This document shows, in pieces, positions 8,412 to 46,761 of a DNA stretch of 64,000 bases. The stretch comes from Dehalococcoidia bacterium (GTDB lineage: Bacteria > Chloroflexota > Dehalococcoidia > Lucifugimonadales > UBA3495). A program made the position numbers and the translations under genes. The stretch's first letter is position 1. Each line of letters begins with the position of its first letter. Where the stretch lies: assembly GCA_003523055.1 (NCBI GenBank), contig DPHC01000002.1:392933-456932 (forward strand). Reading direction: 5' to 3'. Below the pieces are notes generated by a model. The model saw only the letters and a program-made list of their open reading frames with translations. It was not told the DNA's origin and searched no databases.

Positions 8412-8414
8412 TTA

Positions 8415-10328: not shown

Positions 10329-10370
10329 GTTAATGCAATCCTTTCGTTATGTTAAGTTCGCTCATGATAA

Positions 10371-10691
10371 CTACCATCTCATTAAATCAAATTCATCCAC
10401 ATTTACTGAAGACTTATTTTTAAATATTCTTAATACCAACGCCAAGGCCAATCCTACTTCTGCCGCTGCAATTGTAATAATAAATATTGCAATTATATGA
10501 CCATCAAAATTAGAGAACATACCACTGCCTTCATGTACTGCAGCAGCAGCTACAAAATTGATATTAACCGCATTCAGCATCAATTCTATGGCCATGATTA
10601 TCAAAATTGCACTTCTTCTGGACAGAACTCCGTAAAGACCAATTCCAAACAACAACACACTCAGTATATTAATATAGAACAAAGGAACCAT
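10371..10691 (-). CDS. nuoK: NADH-quinone oxidoreductase subunit K
   Basis: 106 aa, three-helix small membrane subunit (MAIELMLNAVNINFVA), in operon position. Confidence 0.88.
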   Translation of the reverse strand: MVPLFYINILSVLLFGIGLYGVLSRRSAILIIMAIELMLNAVNINFVAAAAVHEGSGMFSNFDGHIIAIFIITIAAAEVGLALALVLRIFKNKSSVNVDEFDLMRW

Positions 10692-11186
10692 TTAATTGTC
10701 TCCTTTGTCTGATCTTGCGATAACTATTGCTCCGATAAGGGCGACCAACAATACCAAAGATGCCAGTTCAAAAGGTATAGCCCAAGTCGTAAACAAAGAA
10801 GTTCCCAATTCTTGAACAGTGGCTTCTTGTATCATGTCAGGTTGTATCGGATAAGTTTTATAATATGCTGCAGATAATGTGACCATAACAGAAATTGCTA
10901 TAACTCCCGCTATAGGCCAAAGTTTATGATTGCTAATTCTGGGATAGTCATCATTACGAGTTAGCATCAAGGCAAACAATATCACTATAACTATAGCTCC
11001 ACCATATATCAATAATTGAACTACAGCCAAAAATTCTGTTAATAATACTAAGTAAATGCCAGATACGCTTAATAAAGCAATTAAAAGAGACAATGCTGCA
11101 TGAATAATGTTTTTTGAAAGGACTACTCCTAAAGAGCAACCTAGCAACACAATTGAGATTAAAATAAATACAATAAAATGCATCAT
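10692..11186 (-). CDS. nuoJ: NADH-quinone oxidoreductase subunit J
   Basis: 164 aa membrane subunit, abuts nuoK with no gap, in operon position. Confidence 0.82.
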   Translation of the reverse strand: MMHFIVFILISIVLLGCSLGVVLSKNIIHAALSLLIALLSVSGIYLVLLTEFLAVVQLLIYGGAIVIVILFALMLTRNDDYPRISNHKLWPIAGVIAISVMVTLSAAYYKTYPIQPDMIQEATVQELGTSLFTTWAIPFELASLVLLVALIGAIVIARSDKGDN

Positions 11187-11254
11187 CTACAATTGCACGT
11201 TGTAATAATTAATTTGTGATTTATGTAACAACATAACTTCCTATTTGTATTTTA

Positions 11255-11731
11255 TTAAGATTCAGATGACGGAGTCCAATTAGTTTCTTTTTGATACTTT
11301 TCACCCATTTCAAGCAATACATCAAGTTTCACTCTACTTCCGTCTCTAGTAGTGCCACTTTCTTCGTGTTCGTGGGTCATAACTATTGCATCAAAATTGC
11401 AAACATCTACGCAAATCCCACATAATATACACCTGTTTAAGTTTATCTCAAAGATATCAACAATCTTTCTACGTTTTGTAAGTTGTTGCTCAAATTTAGG
11501 GTTGTCCTTCATAGTAGCAGTCATGCATTGAGTAGGGCAATTTCTAATACAAACCATACATCCAGTACAGAAAGGTTCTTCAACTTTACTATCCCATGTT
11601 AATCCAGGAAAACCCATGAATTTATCTTGCAAAACAGTAGGGTTCTCAGGATATTGCTTTGTAACTGGTTTACGTAATCCTTGTAATGTTGATGCAAGGG
11701 TTTGCATCATTCCTTTTACACTACTTAACAT
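11255..11731 (-). CDS. nuoI: NADH-quinone oxidoreductase subunit I (2x[4Fe-4S] ferredoxin-type)
   Basis: 158 aa with two cluster motifs, CTGCMVCIRNCP and CILCGICVDVCNFDA. Confidence 0.9.
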   Translation of the reverse strand: MLSSVKGMMQTLASTLQGLRKPVTKQYPENPTVLQDKFMGFPGLTWDSKVEEPFCTGCMVCIRNCPTQCMTATMKDNPKFEQQLTKRRKIVDIFEINLNRCILCGICVDVCNFDAIVMTHEHEESGTTRDGSRVKLDVLLEMGEKYQKETNWTPSSES

Positions 11732-11743
11732 TATAATCTCTCT

Positions 11744-12856
11744 TTATTTATTCTCAGATATTTGAAGTCTTGCAATTACTTCAGCGACTTTTTTGGCAGG
11801 GGCGGTAATATGTCTATAAATAACATATCCTACCACTCCTAATCCTACTATTGACATGATACTTAGTACCCACCACGGGAATCCATAAAAAACACACACT
11901 GCAGAAACTAAAACGGAATAAAATGATAATGGAACCATCACTTTCCAAGCAAAGGCCATTAATTGGTCAATTCTCAATCTAGGCAAAGATCCTCGAATCC
12001 AAAATATAACCAAAATAACTATATATACTTTCAGAAGGAGCCATACTATTCCAGGTAATATAGGGCCGGCCCATCCACCTAAAAACAGTAAAACTGTTAG
12101 AGTCGCTATCGCAAACGTGTTTATATATTCTGACAAGAAAAACACTGCCCAATGAGCTCCACTATATTCTACAAACGGGCCCCCAACTATTTCTGATTCC
12201 GCAAAGTAAATGTCAAAAGGAGTTCTCCCAACTTCAGCCAATCCAGCAACAAAAAACACAACTAGAGCTAAAGGGTGAATTAATGCAAATGGTACCGGAT
12301 GTTGTAAATTAACAATCTCTATTAAGTTAAATGTTTGAGTCAATATGGCTATTGAAACTAAAATCATTATCAAAGGTATTTCATAACTTATCAGCTGCGC
12401 AGCTGCTCTCAATCCACCTATGACACCATATTTATTAGCAGATCCCCACCCTGCTAATACTAATCCTAAAATTCCTAAAACTCCCACAGCACCTATATAA
12501 AACAATCCCATGTTTTCTAAATTTTCAACTACAATATCAGGTGTGAATGGAATTGTGACCCATAGCATAAAAGAAGATATAACTACTATAATAGGCGCCA
12601 TCCAAAAAATAACACGTTCTGATTCATTAGGAATGATATCTTCTTTCAAAACTAATTTCACAGCATCTGCTATAGGTTGCAGTAATCCAAACGGACCAGT
12701 CCTAGTAGGGCCAAGTCGTAGTTGTAGCCTACCTAACGCTTTGCGTTCTAACCACACGAGAGATAAAACGATCACCGCTAGAAACGAAAACAATATGAGC
12801 AGATCCATCAGTCTGGTAATTCCATATTGAACAGTAAACATTGATAATAAGTTCAT
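11744..12856 (-). CDS. nuoH: NADH-quinone oxidoreductase subunit H
   Basis: 370 aa polytopic protein containing RLQLRLGPTRTGPFGLLQPIADAVKL and EVGRTPFD, both typical of NuoH/ND1. Its ATG overlaps the nuoD TGA (ATGA). Confidence 0.92.
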   Translation of the reverse strand: MNLLSMFTVQYGITRLMDLLILFSFLAVIVLSLVWLERKALGRLQLRLGPTRTGPFGLLQPIADAVKLVLKEDIIPNESERVIFWMAPIIVVISSFMLWVTIPFTPDIVVENLENMGLFYIGAVGVLGILGLVLAGWGSANKYGVIGGLRAAAQLISYEIPLIMILVSIAILTQTFNLIEIVNLQHPVPFALIHPLALVVFFVAGLAEVGRTPFDIYFAESEIVGGPFVEYSGAHWAVFFLSEYINTFAIATLTVLLFLGGWAGPILPGIVWLLLKVYIVILVIFWIRGSLPRLRIDQLMAFAWKVMVPLSFYSVLVSAVCVFYGFPWWVLSIMSIVGLGVVGYVIYRHITAPAKKVAEVIARLQISENK

Positions 12857-13968
12857 CTGTCGACTTCTCCAAGAACTATATCCAATGAACCCAATATGAC
12901 TACTGAATCAGCAATCCATGCATCTTTTAGCATTACCTGGAGAGCCGATAAATTGCAAAATGACGGAGGCCTAACTTTAAGTCTATATGGTTTATCTGTT
13001 CCATCACTTATTAAGTATATTCCTATTTCACCTCTTGGATTTTCAGCTTTTACATACACTTCACCTTTAGGAGGTCTGATAAGTCTTCTTCCTAAAGGTG
13101 ACTCCACAGATCCTTGAGGAAGTTTGTTTATAGCTTGTTCAACTATTCTAAGTGATTCATGCATTTCCTGAACTCTGACCCAATGTCTATCCCAACAATC
13201 TCCATCCAATCCAATCGGTATATCAAATTCAAATTGATTGTAAATGGAATATGGCTCTGTTTTTCTCACATCATAACTAACACCTGAACCTCGTAAGCAT
13301 GGTCCAGTGAGTCCAAAGTCAATAGCTGCTTCTTTATTAATTACTCCTATTCCTTTCGTGCGACTTAAAAATATTTCATTAAATGTTAATAGTTTTTCTG
13401 TTTCATCTATGTCACGTTTGATTAATGGAATTATTTTGTTAACAGACGAAACAAAATCAGCAGGCACATCCTCTCGTAATCCTCCAATTTTGAAATAGTT
13501 ATGCATCATTCGGGCACCTGAGATAGATTCAAAAAGAGTTTGGATTCTGTCTCTTCCAATAAATGAATATAAGGCTGGAGTCATAGCCCCAGCATCCAAT
13601 CCAATAGTTCCAACATACAAAAGATGGCTTGCTATCCGATTCAATTCAGACAATATAACTCGAACATATTCTGTTCTTTCTGAAACTTCTATATCCAGTA
13701 ATTTTTCAACTGCCCTGCAATATATAAATTCATTATTGAAATTTGCCAAGTAATCGAGCCTATCAAACAAAGTCACTACTTGATGATATTGCTCCCCTTC
13801 ACTTAGTTTTTCAGAGCCTCTATGTAGATATCCAATATGTGGGGTAACATCAATGATTTTCTCTCCATCAATTCTAAGCTCCATTCTAAAAACACCATGG
13901 GTAGAAGGATGCTGCGGGCCCATGTTCAGCATCATGTCAACGGTTTGTCCGTTATTATCATGTATCAT
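12853..13968 (-). CDS. nuoD: NADH-quinone oxidoreductase subunit D
   Basis: 371 aa. Contains NMGPQHPSTHGV and ends in the family-typical GEVDR followed by TGA. Confidence 0.95.
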   Translation of the reverse strand: MIHDNNGQTVDMMLNMGPQHPSTHGVFRMELRIDGEKIIDVTPHIGYLHRGSEKLSEGEQYHQVVTLFDRLDYLANFNNEFIYCRAVEKLLDIEVSERTEYVRVILSELNRIASHLLYVGTIGLDAGAMTPALYSFIGRDRIQTLFESISGARMMHNYFKIGGLREDVPADFVSSVNKIIPLIKRDIDETEKLLTFNEIFLSRTKGIGVINKEAAIDFGLTGPCLRGSGVSYDVRKTEPYSIYNQFEFDIPIGLDGDCWDRHWVRVQEMHESLRIVEQAINKLPQGSVESPLGRRLIRPPKGEVYVKAENPRGEIGIYLISDGTDKPYRLKVRPPSFCNLSALQVMLKDAWIADSVVILGSLDIVLGEVDR

Positions 13969-13994
13969 AAGTAAAATAAACCTGAAAAGTTAAT

Positions 13995-14504
13995 TTAAAA
14001 TTCATCATATTCGTAAAATGGGTAATCTTTCCGCCCTGGATATCCTTCGAATCCTTCATAAAGTAAAAGGGGAGACATATCTTCATTACCGTCAAATAAA
14101 ATACCATACAAATCATGGATTTCGCGCTCATACCAATTTGCAGCAGCCCATATATTTGCAACAGAATCAATGCTTTGGTCATAATTTAAATTGGATTTAA
14201 TGACCAACGTCTCATTATTATTTAAGGAATAAATAATATATACGATTTGAGCATAGTCTTCATAATCAACACCAGCCATACATAACAGCATTTGGCCATC
14301 AATCGTAGGATCATTCTTAATAAATGAGCAGATGTGGTTCACGTCTCCCGAGCCTACTAACATTGTAGGTATGCCATCAGTCAAAGAGAATGTCAAATTA
14401 TCAAAATTTTTATAATTTGACATGGCATTCTTGAGGGATAAAACGCCTGGATCATTAACAGAAATATCTTGTATTTCTTCTTCTGCAGGAGTATCACTAT
14501 CCAT
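13995..14504 (-). CDS. nuoC: NADH-quinone oxidoreductase subunit C
   Basis: 169 aa. Contains [14 protein letters not shown], typical of the NuoC/30-kDa subunit. Overlaps nuoB by 8 nt. Confidence 0.85.
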
Positions 14505-15027
14505 TAGACTTGGAATCCTTCATGATTTTGTCTTGTAATTTTGTTATTCCATAAAGAAGGGCTTCTGGCCGAGGAGGGCATCCAGGAACATATATATCAA
14601 CTGGAATTATGTGGTCTACTCCCATAACTACTGAGTAAGATTTGTAGTATGGGCCTCCATTAGTAGCACAGCTTCCCATCGCTATAACCCATTTAGGTTC
14701 AGGCATTTGTTCATATAACAATCTAATTGGTTCTTCCATTTTTCTCACCACGGTTCCAGCTACTATCATTACATCCGATTGCCGTGGAGAAGGCCAAGTT
14801 ACTACTCCGAATCTATCTAAATCATAATGAGACATATAAGTTGACATCATTTCGATAGCGCAGCACGCAAGGCCAAAACTCAGAGTCCATAAGGACGATT
14901 TTCTTGCCATACCAAACAATTGTTCTTTAGTAGTAGTAATTACTCCTGGTACTTTTGATCCTAACAAACTATCAAATCTGCTTTTACCAGGTTGATTCCC
15001 CAATTGTGGGTTAATTATTTCTGCCAT
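14497..15027 (-). CDS. nuoB: NADH-quinone oxidoreductase subunit B
   Basis: 176 aa. N2-cluster cysteines lie in [20 protein letters not shown] and PGCPPRPE. Confidence 0.95.
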
Positions 15028-15395
15028 TCAAAAACACCTTTTCTCCAGCCATAAAATATCGCGAAAAACAAGATGAATAAAAACATCATCATTGCATAAA
15101 ATGGCAATACATTACCTAATTCTTTTTGTGCAAGGAACACTAGAGCCCACGGAAAAAGGAAAACTGCTTCTACATCAAATATCAAAAATAAAATTCCGAA
15201 AATATAAAATCGGAAATTTATATTTGCCCAAAAAAATCCTGTACTAGGTATGCCACATTCATATGTAGTCAATTTTAAACTAGATTTTCTTCTTGAACTA
15301 AATAAAAATGAAGCTACAAATAATCCCATAATAGCTCCACCTCCCACTATTACGGACAATCCAACAGAAAACCAATCATTAATGAACGCTTCCAT
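15015..15395 (-). CDS. nuoA: NADH-quinone oxidoreductase subunit A
   Basis: 126 aa, three-helix protein containing YECGIPS and FLIFDVE. First gene of the operon; overlaps nuoB by 13 nt. Confidence 0.85.
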
Positions 15396-26467: not shown

Positions 26468-27694
26468 TTATTCGTTCATATATTGAACTACCAAATCTAT
26501 TTCATCTTGTTTGGTTAACACTGAACATGATAATTTACTTTCAGTCAATAATTCCAAAAAGAAAGATATATGGTTTTTGGGAACTCCCAAGTTGATCAAA
26601 TCGCTGGGCATTAAATCCAATACGGTGTTATCAGTATACAACAGGTATTTATCTAAATTATCAGAAAGTGCCTGATTATTACATGTATTACGATATATAA
26701 CAATGGATTCCCTCGAAATGTTTTTCAATATTCTATATATAGGCACTATAGTTTTACAATGTACGTTGCTCACTAAAAGATTAGGCTTAGCTCGTTCTAA
26801 TTCAATAACCTCATTCAATGTATTTAGGAGAGATTTATCGAACTTAAACAAGCTCGTGAAACTCTGATAATCGGACATATCAAACACCAATAAAAATGAA
26901 GCCCATGCAGTATGCAAATCATTCAGGTTCAAATTTAGTTCACGTGGTTTCAAACTGGATTTTAATCCTAATACTCTGTATTCTAAAAGCATATTAATAC
27001 ACTTTTCTATATTGATTTCAGTGAATATTAAATTCAATTCATGTGTTAACCGATCTTTACTAATGGTATTAATCACGTTGTTTGAAATAGCTTCTTCTAA
27101 AAATAATAACGTCGAATCTTCTATTCCAAAATCAAATCTAGCTGCATATTTTATTAATCTGAAAATCCTTGTTGGGTCATCAATGAAGCTTTTGCTATGC
27201 AAAACCCTGATGGATTCACTATATATGTCATCAATTCCTCCTGTTGGGTCAATTATTTGATGTGGACTGTTCAATGGTATAGCTAACGCATTGATGGAAA
27301 AATCTCTTCGTTTTAAATCTTCGTCAATGTTACTTAAGGTAATAGATGGTAATGAACCGGGTTTAGGATACGTTTCTGATCTAGCTGAAACAAGATCAAT
27401 TTCAAGGTTATTCAGAAATAATGTAGCTGTTAAAAATCGTTCATGATACTTAGCCGGAATACCTAACGTGTCATTAATAGTTTTCGCCAATGTTATAGCG
27501 TTTCCATTCACAGAGATGTCAAGGTCTTTAATATTTTTTCCTAATATCAAATCCCTAACTGTGCCACCTACGATGAATAGTTCATAACCCAATATTTGAG
27601 AAGAATTAGCAATTTCTTGCAGAATATTACCAATATTAGAACCCCACATATCACTTACTAATGATATTGGATTATATATATGATTATTTTCCAT
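26468..27694 (-). CDS. Class II tRNA nucleotidyltransferase / poly(A) polymerase family protein (CCA-, CC- or A-adding), no HD domain
   Basis: 408 aa. Head-domain motifs GGTVRDLILGKNIKDLD and RRDFSINALA. Confidence 0.75.
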   Translation of the reverse strand: MENNHIYNPISLVSDMWGSNIGNILQEIANSSQILGYELFIVGGTVRDLILGKNIKDLDISVNGNAITLAKTINDTLGIPAKYHERFLTATLFLNNLEIDLVSARSETYPKPGSLPSITLSNIDEDLKRRDFSINALAIPLNSPHQIIDPTGGIDDIYSESIRVLHSKSFIDDPTRIFRLIKYAARFDFGIEDSTLLFLEEAISNNVINTISKDRLTHELNLIFTEINIEKCINMLLEYRVLGLKSSLKPRELNLNLNDLHTAWASFLLVFDMSDYQSFTSLFKFDKSLLNTLNEVIELERAKPNLLVSNVHCKTIVPIYRILKNISRESIVIYRNTCNNQALSDNLDKYLLYTDNTVLDLMPSDLINLGVPKNHISFFLELLTESKLSCSVLTKQDEIDLVVQYMNE

Positions 27695-27758
27695 ATTATT
27701 ACTTTCCCGATAATCTGAATGTTAATACAGATTCTATTTTAACTTTGACAACAATTCT

Positions 27759-27788
27759 TTGACAATGAATTTACATAGCATATAGAAT
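27759..27788 (+). promoter_or_regulatory. Candidate sigma70-type promoter for the DsbA-like gene
   Basis: TTGACA (27759..27764), an 18-nt spacer, then TAGAAT (27783..27788), about 30 nt upstream of the ATG at 27821. Pattern match only. Confidence 0.35.
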
Positions 27789-27820
27789 CATAATTGACTT
27801 GTTTTCTAAATGGAGGGCAA

Positions 27821-28459
27821 ATGAATAAAAACCAAAAGAATTATAATTTCTCCATATATTTCGATTTTCGTTGACCGTTTGTATATAACGTAGCTGTATG
27901 GCTTACGCAAGTTAAAAATACTTTAGATGCGGAAATAAATATTGACTGGAAACCTTTTTCTTTGGCTCAAGCCAATAACCCCGACAACTTTAAATATTGG
28001 GAACACCCCGATGTATTAGCAGGATCAGATAAAACATTATTAGCGCATCAAGCAGGATTAGCGATAAAAAAGCAAGGCAATCAGATATTCGACTCATTTT
28101 TGATGATTTTATTGAAAAAGAGGCATGAAAGCAAACAAGATTTAACTGATGTTGCGGTAATAGAGTCAGCAGTAATCGAGTCTGGGGCTGACTTCACTAA
28201 ATACAAAGAAGAGGTATCCAATCCAGATCTACTAAAAGAAATTGGCATCAGCCATGAATTTGCTACAGAAGAATTAGGAGCATTTGGAGTTCCAACTTTT
28301 TATTTCGAATCTGGACAATCCACATTCTTAAAAATGTTTGTACCACCTGAAGATGAAAGTGCTACTATGTTCAAATCGCTGATAGAAGTCATGGGATCTT
28401 TCAACTATGTTGGTGAAATGAAACGTCCTCAACCACCATGGCCTCTAGGCATCATATAA
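27821..28459 (+). CDS. DsbA-like thioredoxin-fold protein with an in-frame TGA (27872..27874) at the active-site Cys position; candidate selenoprotein (212 aa if TGA = Sec)
   Basis: The ORF track gives only 27962..28459 (TTG start), which lacks the N-terminal strand and active site. The same frame upstream reads ATG(27821) NKNQKNYNFSIYFDFR-TGA-PFVYNVAVWLTQVKNTLDAEINIDWKPFSLAQANNP. GGAGGG lies 3 nt before the ATG. FDFx[C]Pxx[YW] is the DsbA-like active-site pattern, and the cis-Pro loop GVPTFYF is present downstream. Confidence 0.6.
27889..27907 (+). promoter_or_regulatory. Candidate SECIS-like hairpin downstream of the DsbA-like TGA
   Basis: CGUAGC-UGUAUG-GCU(U)ACG: a 6-bp stem with one bulged U. 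The apical loop starts about 20 nt after the UGA and has G at loop position 2. Short and unvalidated. Confidence 0.3.
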
Positions 28460-28472
28460 AGTTGAGCTAACA

Positions 28473-29195
28473 GTGAATACAGAAGAAATCACCAAATTAC
28501 AAAGCCTGCTGAAAGTAGAGTTCACAAACGCTGGTATTTTAGTGCAGGCACTAACTCATAGGTCTTATTTGAATGAACAACCTAATAAAGATTTGCCTTC
28601 ATATGAACGACTGGAATTTCTCGGAGATTCATTATTGAGTGAAATAATATCTAAGGAATTATATAAGAAGTATCCAAATTATTTAGAGGGTGCCCTGACT
28701 AAAATAAGATCCAGTTTAGTTTCAGGGGATTCACTTGCAAAAATAGGTGCAAAGCTGGGGTTAGATAAATACATAATAACTGGTAAGGGAGAATATCTGT
28801 CAGAAGGACCTCAGAAAAAATCGATTCTTGCTGCTGTGTTTGAATCTATTACTGCAGCCATATATTTAGATCAAGGCTATATACCAATGCGTGATTTCGT
28901 TCTGAGACATTTAAGGCAACCACTAGGCCAATTCACATTGGGTAATAACCAGATATCTGATCCTAAGTCTCAATTACAAGAATTATCACAGAAACTCTAC
29001 AACGATTTGCCTCAGTACAAAGTTTTAGGGCGTGAAGGACCTGATCACAAACCGATATTCAAAGTTTCTGTTGCTATCGGTAATCGTTCATTAGCAATAG
29101 AAGTTGGGAATTCCAAATCTGAAGCAGAAACTAAAGTAGCACAAGTAGCTTTAGATATCTTATTATCAACAAATAGTAACAGTGTAAAATTATAA
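28473..29195 (+). CDS. rnc: Ribonuclease III
   Basis: 240 aa with a GTG start. Signature ERLEFLGDSLL and a C-terminal dsRBD (PIFKVSVAIG...SKSEAE). Confidence 0.92.
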   Translation: MNTEEITKLQSLLKVEFTNAGILVQALTHRSYLNEQPNKDLPSYERLEFLGDSLLSEIISKELYKKYPNYLEGALTKIRSSLVSGDSLAKIGAKLGLDKYIITGKGEYLSEGPQKKSILAAVFESITAAIYLDQGYIPMRDFVLRHLRQPLGQFTLGNNQISDPKSQLQELSQKLYNDLPQYKVLGREGPDHKPIFKVSVAIGNRSLAIEVGNSKSEAETKVAQVALDILLSTNSNSVKL

Positions 29196-29202
29196 ATCAA
29201 AT

Positions 29203-30141
29203 ATGTTCAACATTTTCAAGAAAAATAACACACCTGAGAATCCAGACAATTATAAAAATATCATAAATAAAAAACAGAATTGGTTAAGTAAATTACCAAT
29301 TATATTTTCCAAAAATAAATTGACTGAGCAAGATTGGGAAGAATTAGAAGAGATATTGATTTCTTCTGATGCCGGATATTCTATGTCCCAGAAAATCATT
29401 GATTTGATTAGGAAAGAAATCCAAACTACATCCACCAATAATGTCCCATATTTAGAAACACTTCGTGAAGTCTTAATAACCCAGTTGAAATATCCTGCTC
29501 CAGAAAATGAAACCATAATCAAAACGCCATATGTCATACTTGTAGTAGGCATCAACGGAGTCGGTAAAACAACAAGTATAGCCAAATTAGCATCTTACTT
29601 TAAACAATCAGGGAAATCAGTATTGCTTAGCGCTGGAGATACTTTCAGAGCCGCTGCAGCTGAACAATTAGAATATTGGGCTGATAAGATAGGAGTAGAC
29701 ATAGTAAAGCAACCCCAAGGGTCAGATCCTGGATCAGTTGTATTTGACTCTTACCAAGCAGCCAAAGCTAGAAATATCGACATTTTATTAATAGATACTG
29801 CAGGCAGAATGAACAATAAATCGAACTTGATGGAAGAATTAACTAAAATAAAAAGAATTCTAACAAAGAATGATTCTGATGCTCCGCATGAAGTGATTTT
29901 AATTCTAGATGCTACTACAGGCTTGAATGGATTAGAGCAAGCTAGATCCTTCAACGAAGCAGTTCAATGCACCGGAGTGTTCTTAACCAAATTAGATGGT
30001 ACTTCTAAAGGTGGGATAGTATTAGCTGTAAAAGATCAACTAAATATACCAATACTATTCATAGGCACAGGAGAAACAATGGCAGATATTGCATACTTTG
30101 AACCCGAAGAATTTGTAGATGCCATGTTGGAGATAGAATAA
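29203..30141 (+). CDS. ftsY: Signal recognition particle receptor FtsY
   Basis: 312 aa. GTPase motifs GINGVGKTT, DTAGR and TKLDGT. Confidence 0.93.
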   Translation: MFNIFKKNNTPENPDNYKNIINKKQNWLSKLPIIFSKNKLTEQDWEELEEILISSDAGYSMSQKIIDLIRKEIQTTSTNNVPYLETLREVLITQLKYPAPENETIIKTPYVILVVGINGVGKTTSIAKLASYFKQSGKSVLLSAGDTFRAAAAEQLEYWADKIGVDIVKQPQGSDPGSVVFDSYQAAKARNIDILLIDTAGRMNNKSNLMEELTKIKRILTKNDSDAPHEVILILDATTGLNGLEQARSFNEAVQCTGVFLTKLDGTSKGGIVLAVKDQLNIPILFIGTGETMADIAYFEPEEFVDAMLEIE

Positions 30142-37966: not shown

Positions 37967-38305
37967 TTACATCAAATATTTTTTGATATCAGCTCCGGCA
38001 AAAAACTCACCTTCAAAATAAACCATTGGTCGTTTGATCAGCTTCGGTTCTTCAATCATATAATTCATCTTGGATTCAGTAGTCATTTCGTCTAAGACCA
38101 ATTCAAGTTTTTTCACAGAAGGGCTTCTAGTAGCAAATATATAATCTATATCACAATATTTTAATATATCACTCAATTCTAATATAGTTAATTTGTTTTC
38201 AAATATATCTCTCTCAAAAATTTCGTAACCACGTTGCAAAAGCATCTCTTTCGCTTTTTTACAACTGCTTCAACGCTTCCAAGTATATAAATTAGCTGTT
38301 TTCAC
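37967..38305 (-). CDS. ArsC/Spx-family thioredoxin-fold protein with an in-frame TGA (38270..38272) at the first Cys of CxxC; candidate selenoprotein with U-S-S-C (112 aa if TGA = Sec)
   Basis: The ORF track gives only 37967..38245. The same frame upstream reads GTG(38305..38303) KTANLYTWKR-TGA-SSCKKAKE-M. An in-frame TAG sits immediately upstream of the GTG. GGAGGG lies 3 nt before the GTG, and the GTG overlaps the mutS stop (GTGA). The family motif LIKRPMV is present near the C-terminus. Confidence 0.68.
38233..38265 (-). promoter_or_regulatory. Candidate bacterial SECIS hairpin downstream of the ArsC/Spx-like TGA
   Basis: On the mRNA: GUUG-UAA-AAAAGC-[GAAAGAGAU]-GCUUUU-G-CAAC, a 4-bp lower stem, an internal loop, a 6-bp upper stem and a 9-nt loop starting with G. 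It begins 4 nt after the UGA, and the loop begins about 18 nt after it. Confidence 0.45.
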
Positions 38306-41691: not shown

Positions 41692-44520
41692 TTATCTCCT
41701 TTTGCTTATATTAGCAACAAGCACTTTTAATCCAGGGACATCAGACATAGGATCTATATTTTCACTATTTTGTAATTCGATCGCTAATTGCCCAAACAAA
41801 GAAGTAGTAGATAGAACACCTGAGGGAATTTTCTCATTAATTCTGACGGTGCCATTCATTTTTTGATTACTTGTTGTAACTGTAATTTTATCACCCTCAT
41901 TAATCAATAATTCTTTAGCAGAAGATACATTTAACTCAAATACATCTGGACGATGTATATAATTCTGATCACTTTCTTCTATTATTTTCATAGAGTTGCT
42001 TGAAGAGAACAAAACTCTCCCTTGGACCAACAACAAATCTGCAGTATTACAATCATTGACTTCGTTTACATTCACATCTGGAACGTACACACAAAAATGA
42101 GTTTCTACGCCTGGTGAGAATAGCTGGGAAGATCCATAAGGATTAGCGGTGCCAGCGGCAGGCCATTGCATACCATTACTTTCATAGCTAGCATATAGTT
42201 CTTGTGTAGGTTTAGGAGTATCATACCCTGATCTAAATACTAATTTTACATTTTTATCTAGAATTTCATATGAAATCCCTTCATATATATTGCACACTTC
42301 GGATATCTCGTCCATAACCGCAGATTCATTCTCAAAATTAAAACCGTCTAACGACCACAATTTTGCCAATTCGCTGGCAACCCATATTTCTGACTTGGCT
42401 TCATTGTTTTTAACAGGCATTACTTCTGAAAATTTTTGCACTCTTCTTTCTATATTTGTAAGAGTCCCAGATTTTTCAGCGAAAGTCAGTCTTGGAAGAA
42501 CCACATCTGCAATATCAGTCAATTGAGTTTCAAAACTATCTTGCACTACTAAGAAATCTAATTCTTGTAGCTGATTTGCTAAAAACCTCATCGAATCATC
42601 TGATTCAACTGGCAAATCTCCTATAACCATCATTTTTTTTATGCTTCCATCTGACACAGACACACCAAGGTTTCTAACGGGAATACCTGACTGGCTTGAT
42701 ATCTCAATTCCCCATTTATGTTTCAGTGTTTCAGCAGCTGTCTTATCTTCTACAAAACTACCTCCGGGCAATCTGTTTGGCATGCATCCCACATCTTGAG
42801 CACCTTGTTCATTAGCACCATATCGCATAGGGTATATGCCCGAACCAATTGTATTAATATTATCTGTAATTAGTGTCAAGTTAGTTAAATTTGCTACAAC
42901 ATAATCTGATATAGCATGCGAAATGGTGTCTAAGGAATATATAATTGATGCTGTATCAGATTGTGTTAACAATTGAGCGACACTCAATAAATCAGACTCG
43001 TCCACTTCTGTCGTACTGCAAATTTGAGAAAGATCTAAATTTTGGACATACAAACATAATTCATCTATATTTTTGATCGTATCGCGTAAGTTAGGAATAT
43101 CAATCAAATCATTATCAAACATCAATTTCATAATACCCAGCAATACCATATTTTCACTGCCAGGACGAGGCCTAATCCAAACATCGCTATGGCGAGTCAA
43201 TTCCACTTCTCTTACATCGATTACGATTAATTTAGCTCCGGATTTTATTGCTTTCTTTATGGGCAGAGATATGACATTTTGTTGTTCTGTAATGTTAGCG
43301 TTAAAGACTAATACACATTCAGATTTTGAAATGTCCCAAATAGATCCGGTTGCAGCCCCCATTCCTATCATTTTTTGCAAATTATCAGTCAATTCTGGGT
43401 GTATATTAGTAGATTGATCTATATTATTGGTTCCCATCTGCATCCTGACTAATTTTTGCCATATGTATAATTCTTCATTAGTGCTATCTTTAGCAGCTAG
43501 CAAAGCAAAATCCTCTTTGGAGCTTACGTTTAACTTATCTGATATTAATTTTAAAGCCTCTTCCCAGCTAACTTTTGCTAATTTTCCGTCTTTACGTATC
43601 ATTGGATGACGAATTCTTGAGGTAGAATTTACAAAATCCAGACCAAATTTCCCTCTAAAACAGGCTTGTCCATGATTTACTGGAGAATCTAATTCAGGCA
43701 CTACTCTAATCATTCGTCCAAATTCATTTAATTCAAAGTTCATCTGGCAACCAACAGGACATTGAGTACAAATAGTTTTTTTGATTTCTCGCGGTTTTTC
43801 CCATTTGTTTTCTCTTTCTACTAGGGCACCTACTGGGCACACATCTAAGCAAGCCCCACAAAATTCACAACCCGATTCTAATAAAGAAGACCCAAATGAA
43901 GTTCCTACTAATGCTCTGCCTCCTCGTTCAACAAACGTAATTGCGGAGTCTCCTCGTATTTCTTCGCAGACTCTGACACATCTTCCGCAAGTTATACATA
44001 AATTATAGTCCCTATCATAGAAAGGGTCTTTAATTTCTAGTGGAATCTCTTTATATTTATAGTCTAAATGGGATTCCAATTCCATCCCTAAATATCTCAC
44101 AGTATCTTTAAATTCACACCTTTCATTTTTGGGACAGGTTATACATCTGTCATTAACTGACACGTGCCTCAAGCAAACATCGCCTGGGCCGCAAATATCG
44201 ATACGGTGGCACGTCAAGCATCCATTTGGATGTTCTGCTATCATCATTTCTATTATGGATTTTCTAAGTTCATTTACCTCAGGAACATTATTGTTGATTA
44301 TCATTCCATCTTGAACTGGCAGTGTGCATGATGCTGGTGTTCCTCGGCCATCAACTACAGACACAACACAAGTACGACAAGCTCCAAAAGGTTTCATGCC
44401 AGGGTGATAGCACAAGTAAGGAATATATATGCCAGCGTCTATAGCGGCTTCCAATACCATTTTACCTGGTTCTGTTTTTACTTCTTGACCATCAATAGTA
44501 ATAGTTATTTCGTCTGGCAT
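41692..44520 (-). CDS. NuoG/FdsA-like Fe-S subunit with a molybdopterin-oxidoreductase-type C-terminal domain; the FDH Mo-ligand Cys/Sec appears to be absent
   Basis: 942 aa. N-terminal 2Fe-2S ferredoxin region (CYHPGMKPFGACRTC), 4Fe-4S motifs (CITCGRCVRVC, CEFCGACLDVCPVGA), MopB 4Fe-4S (CTQCPVGC...C) and a C-terminal MopB beta-barrel-like tail. The segment GTNNIDQSTNIHPEL aligns by eye with FDH GTNNVDCCARV[U/C]HGPS, placing Ile at the ligand position. Confidence 0.8.
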   Translation of the reverse strand: MPDEITITIDGQEVKTEPGKMVLEAAIDAGIYIPYLCYHPGMKPFGACRTCVVSVVDGRGTPASCTLPVQDGMIINNNVPEVNELRKSIIEMMIAEHPNGCLTCHRIDICGPGDVCLRHVSVNDRCITCPKNERCEFKDTVRYLGMELESHLDYKYKEIPLEIKDPFYDRDYNLCITCGRCVRVCEEIRGDSAITFVERGGRALVGTSFGSSLLESGCEFCGACLDVCPVGALVERENKWEKPREIKKTICTQCPVGCQMNFELNEFGRMIRVVPELDSPVNHGQACFRGKFGLDFVNSTSRIRHPMIRKDGKLAKVSWEEALKLISDKLNVSSKEDFALLAAKDSTNEELYIWQKLVRMQMGTNNIDQSTNIHPELTDNLQKMIGMGAATGSIWDISKSECVLVFNANITEQQNVISLPIKKAIKSGAKLIVIDVREVELTRHSDVWIRPRPGSENMVLLGIMKLMFDNDLIDIPNLRDTIKNIDELCLYVQNLDLSQICSTTEVDESDLLSVAQLLTQSDTASIIYSLDTISHAISDYVVANLTNLTLITDNINTIGSGIYPMRYGANEQGAQDVGCMPNRLPGGSFVEDKTAAETLKHKWGIEISSQSGIPVRNLGVSVSDGSIKKMMVIGDLPVESDDSMRFLANQLQELDFLVVQDSFETQLTDIADVVLPRLTFAEKSGTLTNIERRVQKFSEVMPVKNNEAKSEIWVASELAKLWSLDGFNFENESAVMDEISEVCNIYEGISYEILDKNVKLVFRSGYDTPKPTQELYASYESNGMQWPAAGTANPYGSSQLFSPGVETHFCVYVPDVNVNEVNDCNTADLLLVQGRVLFSSSNSMKIIEESDQNYIHRPDVFELNVSSAKELLINEGDKITVTTSNQKMNGTVRINEKIPSGVLSTTSLFGQLAIELQNSENIDPMSDVPGLKVLVANISKRR

Positions 44521-44532
44521 GTTAACTCCATA

Positions 44533-46254
44533 TTATCTTCTTGTACGTTTAGGAGAAAATCTTTTTTTATTGCATACTTTAGTTAGGCAAGTATGTCCAA
44601 TTATATGTTGATTAAACTCTTCGGAAAAATATTTAATGGCAGAAGCTACTGGATTAAAACCAAGCTGACCGTGGCCACACAATGAACCAGCTTGCATATT
44701 TTCTCCTATACTCCTCATAAGGTCCAAATCTTCTTCAGTTCCTTCTAAATCGCAGATACGCTCTAACACTTCTAAGAGGTGACTCATTCCCATTCGGCAC
44801 GGGAAACATTTACCGCAAGATTCATATTGGCAAAATGCTATTAGTGAACGAGTTAAATCCACAATACAAGTCCGTTCATCTGCTGCAATGATGCCTCCGG
44901 ATCCCAAAATCGCTCCAGCATTTCTAAAAGACTCGTAATCTAGGATCAGATCTATGTTATCGGCATTCAAGACTCCACCCAGCGGGCCTCCAGTTTGAAC
45001 TAACTTTAAATTCCTACCTTCTGGGATTCCTCCAGCAAGATCAAACAATATATCTTTTAAATTAAGCCCCATTGGAACTTCTATCATACCTGTTCGGTTC
45101 AGAGAGCCTGACAAACATAAAATAGCGGTACCTTTGCTTTGCTCATATCCAATTTCTGAAAACCATTGGCCTCCCTTTCTGACTATTTCAGGGACGTACG
45201 ACAAAGTTTTTACATTATTGATATTAGTTGGCTTCCCAAACACTCCTACTTGTGCAGGGAACGGTGGCCTATATCTCGGCATAGCTCGTTTCCCTTCTAT
45301 AGCTTCCATCAGTGCCGTTTCTTCTCCTGCGACGTATGAATCTCCAGTTAACGCAATTTCTAGGTCAAATGAGAAATCTGTGCCTAGTATATTTGTTCCC
45401 AATAAACCTTTTTCATATGCTTGCTTTACTGCGGTTTTAGCTCTTTCAATTGGTCCATCATGTCCATGCCTTATGAATATATATCCTCTGTTTGAATTAG
45501 TCGCATAGCCTGCAAGAGCAATGCCTTCTACGACTGTATGTGGGTCACTTTCTAATATTCCTTTATCATTAAAAGCTCCAGGGTCTCCTTCCTCGCAATT
45601 ACATAGAATATATTTATCCTTAGCAGGATTAGAGGCTAAGAAGCTCCATTTTACTCCTGTAGCAAATGCCGCTCCTCCTCTTCCTCTCAATCCAGATTCT
45701 TTTACTTCGTTGAGAGTAGACTCAGGATCCAATTCGAACAATGCCCGATTCAAAGCATAGTATCCTCCATTGGATATGTATTGATCGATATCATACGGGT
45801 CAATATTACCGGCATTCCTCAACGAGATCCGTAATTCTTTAGATTTCATCGGGTGATCTTCTAACTTAGTTACACCTTCTAATTCCATATCACCGCTATA
45901 TAAAAAAACGTGCTTATTGGGGATTTGGTTATCAATAATATGAGACTGTATAATATCCTCAAGGTTATCTTCGGATACGTTATTATAGAAAATTCTATTT
46001 CCACCTGGCATCTGAATATCTAATAAAGGTTCTGCAAAACATAAACCTATGCATCCAACTTCACTGACGTTGGCTTGGATACCTAACATCTCTAAGCAGT
46101 TGGAAATAGAATTATATATTTGCTTACTTCCTGCAGCTTCTCCACACAGAGCAGTACCTATTCTGATCCATGGTAATTCACCTTGGTTCAGGTGATTCCA
46201 TTTTTCTTGCGCCTGTGCAGATATTTTCTTAAATGAGTCAGTCTCTACTACCAC
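44533..46254 (-). CDS. NuoF/FdsB-like NADH-binding FMN / 4Fe-4S subunit with an N-terminal extension
   Basis: 573 aa. GRGGAAF occurs at about residue 190. N3-cluster cysteines lie in ESCGKCFPCR and SLCGHGQ. The roughly 120-aa N-terminal extension contains Cys residues (GTALCGEA, CIGLCFAEP). Confidence 0.88.
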   Translation of the reverse strand: MVVETDSFKKISAQAQEKWNHLNQGELPWIRIGTALCGEAAGSKQIYNSISNCLEMLGIQANVSEVGCIGLCFAEPLLDIQMPGGNRIFYNNVSEDNLEDIIQSHIIDNQIPNKHVFLYSGDMELEGVTKLEDHPMKSKELRISLRNAGNIDPYDIDQYISNGGYYALNRALFELDPESTLNEVKESGLRGRGGAAFATGVKWSFLASNPAKDKYILCNCEEGDPGAFNDKGILESDPHTVVEGIALAGYATNSNRGYIFIRHGHDGPIERAKTAVKQAYEKGLLGTNILGTDFSFDLEIALTGDSYVAGEETALMEAIEGKRAMPRYRPPFPAQVGVFGKPTNINNVKTLSYVPEIVRKGGQWFSEIGYEQSKGTAILCLSGSLNRTGMIEVPMGLNLKDILFDLAGGIPEGRNLKLVQTGGPLGGVLNADNIDLILDYESFRNAGAILGSGGIIAADERTCIVDLTRSLIAFCQYESCGKCFPCRMGMSHLLEVLERICDLEGTEEDLDLMRSIGENMQAGSLCGHGQLGFNPVASAIKYFSEEFNQHIIGHTCLTKVCNKKRFSPKRTRR

Positions 46255-46299
46255 AAGCTATCCTAAAAACCTTTCCAATGTATGTTCCAGTGTGATCAT

Positions 46300-46761
46300 T
46301 TACTTTAATCCTTCAATTTTATTTTTCAACAAGGATTTTGTAACACGCCCTATTAAATGATGATCAATCGCTACAACAGGGGCCTGCGCACATGCTCCTA
46401 AGCATGTGTTAAAGCCTAATTCTATTTCTCCATTTTGAGTTCGACCTTCTTCAGTTATATCCAAAGATTCAAAAGCTTCTTCAAAAATTTCCATAGCACC
46501 AGCAATATGACATGTCGGGCCCCAACATATTTCTATATTACACTTAGCAGGTTCTTCGAATTTGAAGTTTGGGTAGAAAGAAGCAACTGCCCACACGTCA
46601 TTTACAGTTGTATTGGGAATTTCTAAAGAAACAACTTCCATTGATTCCTTAGGTATGTAACCTATTTTATCTTGTATTGCCAATAATGATGACAATACAG
46701 TTTTGGTGGGTTGTTCTTGGCTACGAACGGCATTTGTGATAGCAGTGGTAAGCACATCCAT
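46300..46761 (-). CDS. NuoE/FdsG-like thioredoxin-like [2Fe-2S] subunit
   Basis: 153 aa. 2Fe-2S ligand pairs are CWGPTCHIAG and CLGACAQAP. Confidence 0.88.
   Translation of the reverse strand: MDVLTTAITNAVRSQEQPTKTVLSSLLAIQDKIGYIPKESMEVVSLEIPNTTVNDVWAVASFYPNFKFEEPAKCNIEICWGPTCHIAGAMEIFEEAFESLDITEEGRTQNGEIELGFNTCLGACAQAPVVAIDHHLIGRVTKSLLKNKIEGLK

What the first reader, a model, noticed from the sequence alone, without database searches (positions are those of the whole stretch)
27821..28459. DsbA-like gene with TGA at the active-site Cys position (FDFR-U-PFVY): second candidate selenoprotein
The ORF track reports only a 165-aa ORF from a TTG at 27962, which lacks the first beta-strand and active site of the thioredoxin fold.

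- An ATG at 27821 is preceded by GGAGGG with the same 3-nt spacing seen for the ArsC-like gene. It opens the same frame: MNKNQKNYNFSIYFDFR-[TGA 27872..27874]-PFVYNVAVWLTQVKNTLDAEINIDWKPFSLAQAN.
- Single-Cys DsbA-like / Thioredoxin_5-type proteins have hh-FDx-x-C-P-[WF]-x-[WY] followed later by a W-x-x-F-S-L segment. The TGA falls exactly on that Cys, which corresponds to the catalytic Ser/Cys of the related HCCA-isomerase / kappa-GST type.
- The cis-Pro loop GVPTFYF is intact downstream.
- A short bulged hairpin (27889..27907) places its loop about 20 nt after the UGA.
- As far as I recall, DsbA-like and ArsC-like selenoprotein families have been reported from marine metagenome selenoproteome surveys, which fits an oceanic origin.
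Basis: partly seen in the sequence, partly recalled or inferred. Interest (0 to 1): 0.72.

Follow-up and report, generated by a model that had tools for sequence, protein, structure and literature searches.

The report
Selenocysteine-containing DsbA-like redox gene
A gene that public databases annotate as a truncated hypothetical protein is really a full-length thioredoxin-fold redox protein whose single active-site residue is selenocysteine, encoded by an in-frame UGA; the recoding is of a known kind and is conserved in all 80 related marine Dehalococcoidia/SAR202 genomes examined.

Summary
ATG 27821, preceded by GGAGGG, opens a 212-codon frame. It is interrupted only by TGA 27872-27874 and ends at TAA 28457-28459. 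The read-through product matches Pfam DSBA from residue 12.

All 80 species-level Dehalococcoidia/SAR202 loci fetched carry TGA at the same column. All have a Shine-Dalgarno site and an ATG or GTG start 13-17 codons upstream, and coding-type conservation on both sides. Cys orthologues exist, one of them at the syntenic locus. No other residue is ever seen at that column.

TGA is otherwise a normal stop in the window.

Sec machinery is not in the 64 kb. However, two sister genomes that carry this TGA gene are published as Sec users with 46-49 selenoprotein genes.

The closest solved relative is the uncharacterised single-Cys DsbA-like protein DR2335. DsbA-like selenoproteins have been known since 2005, and a 'DxxUP' form is catalogued. 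I therefore file this as a new, currently misannotated member of a known kind.

Extras: an invariant CGU codon before the UGA, and CoaE fusions in distant relatives.

The parts
27759..27788 (+). Sigma-70-like promoter candidate, TTGACA-18 nt-TAGAAT (11 of 12 matches), in the divergent intergenic region.
   Evidence: This is a consensus match only; the region held fewer promoter-like sites than its shuffles.
27812..27817 (+). Shine-Dalgarno sequence GGAGGG, 3 nt before the start codon.
   Evidence: An SD-like GGAGG lies 5-8 nt upstream of the equivalent start in 81 of 81 orthologous loci.
27821..28459 (+). Full selenoprotein coding sequence: 212 codons including Sec17, plus the TAA stop. It encodes a single-selenol DsbA-like thioredoxin-fold protein.
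   Evidence: (Pfam PF01323, 46.5 bits against a cut-off of 25.6, residues 12-166).
27869..27871 (+). Arg16 codon CGT immediately 5' of the UGA. It is invariant at the nucleotide level across orthologues.
   Evidence: CGT in 81 of 81 sequences, third-position entropy 0. T is the minor choice at the gene's other conserved CGN columns. CGT is 38 of 245 Arg codons in nine window ORFs.
27872..27874 (+). In-frame TGA, read as selenocysteine (Sec17). It is the active-site residue between strand beta-1 and helix alpha-1.
   Evidence: TGA in 80 of 80 loci. Cys in 12 protein clusters, 'W' from code-4 gene calls in 4, no other residue; the homologous Cys14 sits before helix 15-31.
27889..27907 (+). SECIS-like hairpin. 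Stem 27889-27895 pairs with 27900-27902 and 27904-27907; bulged U at 27903; loop GUAU at 27896-27899, beginning 21 nt after the UGA.
   Evidence: minimum-free-energy fold; 88.8% of cells paired against 18-64% when slid; pair 18-36 is CG 31 / UA 31. (independent changes). (suppressed synonymous variation). (RNAalifold with RIBOSUM scoring recovers it).
27962..27964 (+). TTG used by mechanical ORF calling as the start. I judge it an artefact: it is an internal Leu codon of the FSLAQ motif.
   Evidence: No SD precedes it. Orthologues were given many different downstream starts.
28286..28297 (+). G156-V-P158-T159, the cis-proline loop of the thioredoxin fold.
   Evidence: These columns are invariant in the family alignments. 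The cis conformation is inferred from family knowledge, not tested.
28421..28444 (+). C-terminal KRPQPPWP motif. It is nearly invariant in the clade, and E-x-K-R-P is conserved in distant relatives.
28473..30141 (+). Downstream co-oriented genes rnc (RNase III, 28473-29195) and ftsY (29203-30141). They are probable operon partners, given here as context.
   Evidence: Pfam labels come from the syntenic locus L083. rnc follows in 80 of 80 loci and ftsY in 79 of 80.

Best explanation
The gene at 27821-28459 encodes a 212-residue cytoplasmic selenoprotein.

**Decoding (inferred mechanism).** Translation starts at ATG 27821. UGA 27872 is decoded as selenocysteine by the standard bacterial route: SelB with Sec-tRNA(Sec) is recruited by the mRNA hairpin at 27889-27907, whose GU-containing tetraloop begins 21 nt after the UGA.

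**Product.** It is a DsbA-like thioredoxin-fold protein of the single-Cys DR2335 type. Sec17 sits at the N-terminus of helix alpha-1, in the motif D-F-R-U-P-F-V, opposite the G-V-P-T loop.

**Chemistry (inferred).** The protein has no cysteine at all. Catalysis must therefore run through a mixed selenenyl-sulfide with a substrate or a low-molecular-weight thiol, as in a monothiol mechanism, and not through an intramolecular CxxC disulfide. The substrate is unknown.

**Shown versus inferred.**
- Shown: the recoded UGA is under strong purifying selection; it alternates only with Cys; and the RNA around it is constrained.
- Inferred: SelB-dependent Sec insertion in this particular genome, and the chemistry.
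For: - **Reading frame and family.** The frame is confirmed. Pfam DSBA matches residues 12-166 at 46.5 bits against a cut-off of 25.6.
- **TGA conservation.** TGA occupies the same column in 80 of 80 GTDB species loci of Dehalococcoidia, SAR202 and Chloroflexota.
- **Upstream start.** 81 of 81 have GGAGG-like SD plus ATG (70) or GTG (11), 13-17 codons upstream in 79 of 81. Codon-position entropy is 0.25/0.40/0.92 upstream and 0.32/0.14/0.93 downstream.
- **Residues at the column.** Of 122 protein clusters, 12 have Cys, 4 have 'W' (TGA called under code 4), 106 are truncated after the column, and none has another residue.
- **Syntenic Cys orthologue.** P0013 (TGT) lies in the same helicase-OGG-ADH-CCA-DSBA-rnc-ftsY-DUF2298 arrangement.
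- **Genetic code.** TGA ends 7 of 38 long ORFs in the window, so the code is standard.
- **Hairpin.**
  - 88.8% of cells are paired, against 18-64% for slid controls.
  - Pair 18-36 is CG 31 / UA 31 / other 3, at two synonymous third positions; pair 22-31 is GC 55 / AU 9.
  - There are about 3-4 and 2-3 independent double changes on a tree built from the rest of the protein.
  - RNAalifold with RIBOSUM scoring returns the same hairpin, and 48 of 65 single folds contain it.
  - The hairpin Leu codon (0.31 bits) and the CGT before the UGA (0 bits) are the two least variable of 55 conserved four-fold sites, whose median is 1.56 bits.
- **Sec use in sister genomes.** L011 (UBA1141) and L064 (isolate 10f4566d...) carry the TGA gene. 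BSepDB lists them with 49 and 46 selenoprotein genes, after requiring at least 2 Sec-pathway genes (PMC13326102).
- **Second candidate.** An ArsC/Spx-like gene with CGT-TGA lies in the same window, and its one metagenome relative keeps the TGA.
- **Fold.** An AlphaFold2 model of Cys homologue P0011 has pLDDT 92. The best PDB match is DR2335 (7dk9; TM 0.77; profile E 3.9e-22), with its single Cys24 aligned to the column.
Against: - No selA, selB, selD or tRNA-Sec was found in the 64 kb or in the 80 flanking loci. This is expected for unlinked genes, but the trait is not shown for this genome.
- In this AT-rich genome the hairpin is weak (-5.5 kcal/mol) and no better than shuffles.
- RNAalifold with default scoring does not recover the hairpin.
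- The helix I tested was derived from these same sequences.
- Covariation rests on roughly five independent events.
- About 20 of 65 sequences use a shifted register for two pairs.
- Rfam has no match.
- No protein-level evidence of selenium exists.
Confidence: 0.92

Rival explanations
1. The UGA is a true stop. The functional product starts downstream (TTG 27962 or similar) and lacks strand beta-1 and the active site; the 17 upstream codons are a leader or non-coding.
For: Every public annotation is of this kind, at 165-194 aa. The mechanical ORF list gives 27962-28459.
Against: - The upstream codons are conserved as protein, with variation biased to third positions, and an SD plus start codon is present in 81 of 81.
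- Annotated downstream starts differ between orthologues (GTG of VYN, ATG of MW, TTG of LAQ, and others) and have no SD here.
- Pfam DSBA and the DR2335 alignment need the upstream strand and the active-site residue.
- Cys orthologues are read straight through.
Confidence: 0.02
2. The UGA is read through, but not as selenocysteine. Either a near-cognate tRNA-Trp or tRNA-Cys decodes it, or a SelB-dependent tRNA charged with Cys does, giving Trp or Cys at position 17. The second route is recalled from the literature and was not checked here.
For: The Sec machinery was not observed for this genome. The UGA-C context is invariant because Pro follows; that UGA-C is a leaky termination context is my own knowledge, not tested here.
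Against: - A conserved SECIS-type hairpin at the canonical distance is not needed for simple leakiness.
- Sister genomes with the same gene are published Sec users with 46-49 selenoprotein genes.
- The column alternates only with Cys, the standard Sec/Cys signature. Trp appears only in code-4 gene calls.
Confidence: 0.04
3. The gene is a pseudogene, or the TGA is a sequencing or assembly error.
For: A single in-frame stop in one MAG could be either of these.
Against: The same TGA occurs in 80 independent species-level assemblies and many metagenome contigs, with purifying selection on both sides.
Confidence: 0.005
4. The organism uses a genetic code in which TGA is a sense codon (Trp, code 4, or Gly, code 25).
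For: Some gene callers translated the orthologues with W at the column (P0002, P0005, P0126, P0127). The window has low G+C, 33-39%.
Against: - TGA terminates 7 of 38 long ORFs in the window.
- Long ORFs are not fragmented by TGA.
- High-G+C relatives (61-65%) with normal gene structure share the same TGA gene or its Cys form.
Confidence: 0.005

Closest known systems
DsbA-like selenoprotein 'form 2', motif DxxUP (PF01323). Listed in the 2026 prokaryotic selenoproteome catalogue (PMC13188914, citing Peng et al. 2016), representative MDP6049977.1.
   Same: The Pfam domain is the same, and the motif here, D-F-R-U-P, literally matches DxxUP.
   Different: [quoted passage not shown] The window protein is a stand-alone 212-aa DsbA domain, and no crotonase fusion appeared among the relatives I read. 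I could not fetch the representative, so identity at the sequence level is untested.
DsbA-like selenoprotein 'form 1' (Sargasso Sea, COG2761/FrnE type, motif UxxC; Zhang, Fomenko and Gladyshev 2005, PMC1088965).
   Same: It has a Sec at the first position of the thioredoxin-fold active site in a DsbA-like domain, a marine origin, and a bacterial SECIS directly after the UGA.
   Different: Here the motif is U-P-F-V, with no resolving Cys and no Cys anywhere in the protein. FrnE structures are only distant fold matches, ranks 37-39.
DR2335 (DR_2335) of Deinococcus radiodurans, PDB 7dk9/7dka: a single-Cys cytoplasmic DsbA-like protein.
   Same: It is the best sequence and fold relative: profile E 3.9e-22 over positions 7-203, Foldseek TM 0.77. 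Its only conserved Cys (C24, in YFDFL-C-PYAW) aligns with the Sec column, and it shares the C-terminal RRP/KRP motif.
   Different: It has Cys rather than Sec and is 26-28% identical. Its function is unreported (PMC8945050), so it gives no mechanism to borrow.
Rv2466c (mycothiol-dependent reductase), kappa-class GST and HCCA isomerase.
   Same: These are cytoplasmic DsbA-fold enzymes that work with a low-molecular-weight thiol. They appear as weaker fold and profile matches.
   Different: Rv2466c has a two-cysteine active site (recalled as CPWC; a C22S mutant structure is listed), and its Pfam model scores below cut-off here (17.9 against 27). Kappa-GST matches only partially (E 0.04-0.19). 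That kappa-GST and HCCA isomerase use a Ser is from my own knowledge.
The E. coli fdhF-type bacterial SECIS (compared from my own knowledge of the literature, not with a tool).
   Same: It is a hairpin directly downstream of the UGA inside the coding sequence, with a GU in the apical loop roughly 20-25 nt from the UGA and a bulged U in the upper stem.
   Different: The bulged U is on the 3' side of the stem. The loop GU is at positions 27-28 (25-26 in the window), not 23-24. The stem is short, at 7 pairs. No Rfam model matches.

Membership tests
Bacterial selenoprotein gene (Sec-UGA recoding) | An in-frame UGA with protein-coding conservation on both sides across species. | tested here: met
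   TGA is present in 80 of 80 loci. Codon-position entropy shows the same coding pattern upstream and downstream.
Bacterial selenoprotein gene (Sec-UGA recoding) | Cys-containing homologues align at the UGA column. | tested here: met
   12 Cys clusters and no other residue. A syntenic Cys orthologue, L083, uses TGT.
Bacterial selenoprotein gene (Sec-UGA recoding) | A SECIS stem-loop immediately downstream, with the apical loop about 16-37 nt from the UGA and a conserved G in the loop. These criteria are recalled from bSECISearch. | tested here: met
   The conserved hairpin has its loop 21 nt after the UGA, with G and U always in the loop. The single-sequence energy in the window is not significant.
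Bacterial selenoprotein gene (Sec-UGA recoding) | selA, selB, selD and tRNA-Sec are present in the same genome. | not testable with these tools
   They are absent from the 64-kb window and from 80 flanking loci. Two sister genomes are listed as Sec users in BSepDB.
Bacterial selenoprotein gene (Sec-UGA recoding) | Selenium is demonstrated in the protein by 75Se labelling or mass spectrometry. | not testable with these tools
   This requires an experiment.
DSBA-like thioredoxin domain (Pfam PF01323) | The score is above Pfam's gathering threshold over most of the domain. | tested here: met
   46.5 bits against 25.6; residues 12-166 match model positions 4-175 of 191.
DSBA-like thioredoxin domain (Pfam PF01323) | A thioredoxin fold with a helical insertion, and the active-site residue at the N-terminus of helix alpha-1. 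| tested here: met
   In the AlphaFold2 model of Cys homologue P0011 (pLDDT 92.1), strand 6-10 is followed by Cys14 and helix 15-31. All the best-ranked PDB matches are DsbA-fold proteins. The window protein itself could not be submitted.
Classical DsbA / FrnE / 'DsbA-like selenoprotein form 1' | A dithiol CxxC (UxxC) active site. | tested here: not met
   The motif is U-P-F-V and the protein has no Cys. All full-length relatives read have one Cys in D-x-x-C-P.
'DsbA-like selenoprotein form 2' (DxxUP) | The DxxUP motif in a PF01323 domain. | tested here: met
   D14-F-R-U17-P18. The catalogue entry was read.
'DsbA-like selenoprotein form 2' (DxxUP) | Sequence homology to the catalogue representative MDP6049977.1 (labelled crotonase/enoyl-CoA hydratase). 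| not tested
   The sequence could not be retrieved with these tools. No crotonase-linked relatives were seen.
DR2335-type single-Cys DsbA-like proteins | Full-length homology, with the single conserved Cys aligned to the active-site column. | tested here: met
   Profile E 3.9e-22 over positions 7-203; C24 of 7dk9 aligns with the Cys/Sec column. TM 0.77.
Rv2466c-like (Pfam PF22234) | The score is above the gathering threshold. | tested here: not met
   17.9 bits against 27.

The most novel reading that the evidence does not exclude
This is not just another DsbA-like selenoprotein. It would be a distinct, functionally unknown one-selenol enzyme family of the DR2335 type, and a core gene of marine SAR202/Dehalococcoidia that almost always uses Sec: 80 of 80 species, always at the head of the rnc-ftsY cluster.

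Two further readings go with it:
- The family's thiol co-substrate may be coenzyme A, as hinted by recurrent fusions of distant relatives to dephospho-CoA kinase.
- The invariant CGU codon directly before the UGA, also present at the window's second candidate Sec codon, may be a previously undescribed 5' context determinant of Sec insertion in this lineage.
Probability: 0.2. Interest if true: 0.6.

Novelty: new member of a known kind. Interest (0 to 1): 0.35.

Why it matters
- **Annotation.** Every public record of this gene is truncated or unnamed: 165-194 aa, 'hypothetical protein' or 'DsbA family protein'. This includes the window's own record, HCG90717.1. The active site of a conserved redox protein is therefore missing from the databases for a whole abundant ocean lineage.
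- **Biology.** A Sec codon kept in 80 of 80 species suggests that selenium is a routine requirement for SAR202-type Dehalococcoidia.
- **Function.** The family, including the crystallised DR2335, has no known function. A Sec active site, a monothiol architecture and CoaE fusions give concrete hypotheses to test.
- **Recoding.** The invariant CGU before the UGA is a small, testable lead on how sequence context affects recoding.

Tried and rejected
- **Code reassignment.** Rejected: TGA ends 7 of 38 long ORFs.
- **Sec machinery.**
  - ARAGORN on the window and on 60 loci found none.
  - Rfam on the whole window found only tRNA-Val.
  - tblastn with E. coli SelA, SelB and SelD against the window plus 80 loci gave no hits.
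- **Rfam near the UGA.** Only chance-level hits.
- **RNAalifold, default scoring.** It did not recover the hairpin. RIBOSUM scoring did.
- **Cys-form control.** I asked whether the hairpin is lost in Cys orthologues. This was inconclusive with two sequences (-5.9 and -5.6 kcal/mol against a median of -9.0 in Sec forms, and -5.5 in the window).
- **NCBIfam.** No model matches the protein.
- **Structure prediction of the window protein.** A Cys homologue was modelled instead.
- **Literature.**
  - BSepDB supplements are not held.
  - Neither the main text nor the held supplements of Peng 2016 describe the DxxUP form.
  - No paper describing 7DK9 was found.
- **Crotonase fusion.** The fusion implied by the catalogue label was not found. 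The fusions found are to CoaE.
- **Metagenome scan for the ArsC-like gene.** It returned only one relative.

Full report
**1. The observation**

- GGAGGG lies at 27812-27817, followed by a 3-nt spacer and ATG 27821.
- Seventeen codons (MNKNQKNYNFSIYFDFR) precede TGA 27872-27874.
- The frame then continues without interruption (PFVYNVAVWLTQV...GAFGVPTFYF...KRPQPPWPLGII) to TAA 28457-28459.
- Mechanical ORF calling reports only TTG 27962-28459, 165 aa.
- With Cys placed at the TGA, the 212-aa product matches Pfam DSBA (PF01323) at 46.5 bits, against a cut-off of 25.6, over residues 12-166. The match therefore includes the part upstream of the TGA.

**2. The genetic code is standard**

The window has 33-39% G+C. 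TGA nevertheless terminates 7 of 38 long ORFs, and long genes are not broken by TGA.

**3. Comparative evidence for a recoded UGA**

*Organism.* A protein search placed the gene in marine Dehalococcoidia/SAR202. The nearest hit (99% identity) is HCG90717.1, 'hypothetical protein DEZ08_02610 [Dehalococcoidia bacterium]', 174 aa.

*Public protein records.* The nearest hits are all N-terminally truncated or carry 'W' at the column. Some 210-aa relatives read FYDFR-C-PFVYNA.

*Genome loci.* A scan of one genome per GTDB species returned 80 loci. All 80 have TGA at this column (79 by pattern; L003 by eye).

*Upstream start.* In 81 of 81 sequences a GGAGG-like Shine-Dalgarno site precedes an ATG (70) or GTG (11). 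This start usually lies 13 codons before the TGA, and 17 in the window's clade.

*Coding signature.* Nucleotide variation by codon position is 0.25/0.40/0.92 bits upstream and 0.32/0.14/0.93 bits downstream. Both sides are coding.

*Residues at the column.* Among 122 protein clusters:
- 12 have Cys.
- 4 have 'W', all of them TGA translated under code 4.
- 106 begin after the column.
- None has any other residue.

*Synteny.* The Cys orthologue P0013 (codon TGT) sits in the same gene order as the window: DinG-like helicase, OGG, ADH, CCA/poly(A) polymerase, DSBA, RNase III, FtsY, DUF2298. This is a Sec/Cys exchange between orthologues.

**4. The RNA element**

*Shape.* Gapless alignment of 65 distinct UGA+48-nt segments (A2) shows a hairpin.
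- Columns 18-24 pair with 29-31 and 33-36.
- U32 is bulged.
- The tetraloop at columns 25-28 reads AUGU, GUGU or GUAU.

*Pairing.*
- 88.8% of cells form pairs, against 18-64% when the 3' strand is slid.
- Pair 18-36 is C-G in 31 sequences, U-A in 31 and other in 3. Both columns are synonymous third positions: Asn AAY, and the Ala/Ser/Thr codon.
- Pair 22-31 is G-C 55, A-U 9, G-U 1.

*Independence of the changes.* On a tree built from the protein region downstream of the hairpin, these correspond to about 3-4 and 2-3 independent double changes.

*Alignment folding.* RNAalifold with default scoring misses the helix. With RIBOSUM scoring it returns exactly this helix, and 48 of 65 single-sequence folds contain it.

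*Synonymous-site constraint.* This test does not depend on any assumed structure. Among 55 conserved four-fold-degenerate codons of the gene, median third-position entropy is 1.56 bits. The two lowest are the hairpin Leu codon (CTG 63 of 66; 0.31 bits) and the Arg codon before the UGA.

*Caveats.*
- The window's own hairpin is weak (-5.5 kcal/mol) and no better than shuffled sequence.
- About 20 sequences use a shifted register for two pairs.
- Rfam has no match.
- Two Cys orthologues keep part of the helix, so that control is uninformative.

**5. Sec machinery**

None is present in the 64 kb, and none in the 80 flanking loci. The rest of the genome could not be searched.

Published evidence covers the lineage.
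- BSepDB (PMC13326102) calls a species Sec-utilising only if it has at least two Sec-pathway genes.
- It ranks 'Dehalococcoidia bacterium UBA1141' (49 selenoprotein genes) and 'Dehalococcoidia bacterium 10f4566d-...' (46) among the ten richest bacteria.
- Both genomes are in my set (L011, L064) and carry the TGA gene.

The window also holds a second candidate, on the minus strand.
- It has AAGGAGGG, then GTG 38305, then ...YTWKR-TGA(38272-38270)-SSCKKA...
- It belongs to the ArsC/Spx family (TIGR01617 E 2e-19, below that model's cut-off).
- The one metagenome relative found keeps the TGA.

**6. What the protein is**

*Fold.* An AlphaFold2 model of the Cys homologue P0011 (54% identical; pLDDT 92.1) shows strand 6-10, then Cys14, then helix 15-31. 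That is the thioredoxin-fold active-site position.

*Closest solved structure.* It is DR2335 of Deinococcus radiodurans (7dk9).
- Profile E is 3.9e-22 over positions 7-203; TM is 0.77.
- Its only conserved Cys (C24, in YFDFL-C-PYAW) aligns with the column.
- No function has been reported for it (PMC8945050).

*More distant matches.* Rv2466c, YjbH, kappa-GST, HCCA isomerase and FrnE match more weakly.

*Family size and form.*
- An exhaustive profile search finds 723 cluster representatives at E <= 1e-3, and 56 at E <= 1e-30.
- The full-length relatives I read have a single Cys in D-x-x-C-P, never CxxC, and most share E-x-K-R-P near the C-terminus.

*Location and chemistry.* The window protein has no Cys at all and, by eye, no signal peptide. 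I therefore infer a cytoplasmic one-selenol (monothiol-type) mechanism through a mixed selenenyl-sulfide. The substrate is unknown.

**7. Comparison with the literature**

- DsbA-like (COG2761, motif UxxC) and arsenate-reductase selenoproteins were described from the Sargasso Sea in 2005 (PMC1088965).
- The motif here, D-F-R-U-P, fits form 2 literally. I could not retrieve the representative, and I saw no crotonase-linked relatives. Membership of form 2 is therefore likely but unverified.
- Form 1 is excluded by its UxxC criterion.
- No paper in the library links SAR202 explicitly to selenoproteins apart from the BSepDB table.

**8. Verdict**

- It is a genuine selenoprotein gene (confidence about 0.92). 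It is misannotated in all public records, and it belongs to a known kind, the Sec-containing DsbA-like thioredoxin-fold proteins.
- For a specialist this is not surprising, hence moderate-to-low interest.
- The points that go beyond the catalogue are:
  - universal Sec use across 80 species;
  - a fixed position ahead of rnc and ftsY;
  - the DR2335 relationship;
  - the invariant CGU before the UGA;
  - CoaE fusions in distant relatives.

Noticed in passing
window 37967-38305 (minus strand); Sec codon at 38272-38270: A second candidate selenoprotein, of the ArsC/Spx family. It has SD AAGGAGGG, GTG 38305, then MKTANLYTWKR-TGA-SSCKKAKEML... (motif UxxC), again with CGT directly before the TGA. 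TIGR01617 gives E 2e-19, below that model's cut-off. The one metagenome relative (L085, 90% identical) keeps the TGA.
   Followed up: partly
window 27869-27871, and the same column in L001-L080: The Arg codon immediately 5' of the Sec-UGA is CGT in 81 of 81 sequences. T is the minor third base at the gene's other conserved CGN-Arg columns, and CGT is only 38 of 245 Arg codons in nine window ORFs. Cys orthologues show CGT-TGT (L083) and CGC-TGC (L084). I have no explanation for this nucleotide-level constraint.
   Followed up: partly
proteins P0199, P0217, P0272 (distant relatives, not in the window): Three 50%-identity cluster representatives are fusions of dephospho-CoA kinase (PF01121, E 1e-46 to 1e-49) to a single-Cys DsbA-like domain of this family. 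This may link the family to coenzyme A thiol chemistry.
   Followed up: partly
window 26468-30141 and loci L001-L080: Gene order is deeply conserved. RNase III follows the DsbA-like gene in 80 of 80 loci and FtsY in 79 of 80. A CCA-adding/poly(A) polymerase gene lies divergently upstream in 71 of 80, and a zinc-type alcohol dehydrogenase in 67 of 80.
   Followed up: yes
public protein records for this gene (HCG90717.1, MQG36213.1, PKB59218.1, MCI0788686.1 and others): All GenBank and IMG annotations of this gene are N-terminally truncated (165-194 aa) and named 'hypothetical protein' or 'DsbA family protein'. The only full-length calls come from code-4 gene prediction, which puts Trp at the Sec position.
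   Followed up: yes
window 5428-15395 (minus strand) and 41692-46761 (minus strand): By eye from the ORF translations, the first stretch is a long run of NADH:quinone oxidoreductase (nuo) subunit genes. The second is a cluster that looks like NuoE, NuoF and a NuoG/formate-dehydrogenase-like protein. I did not check these with a family search.
   Followed up: no
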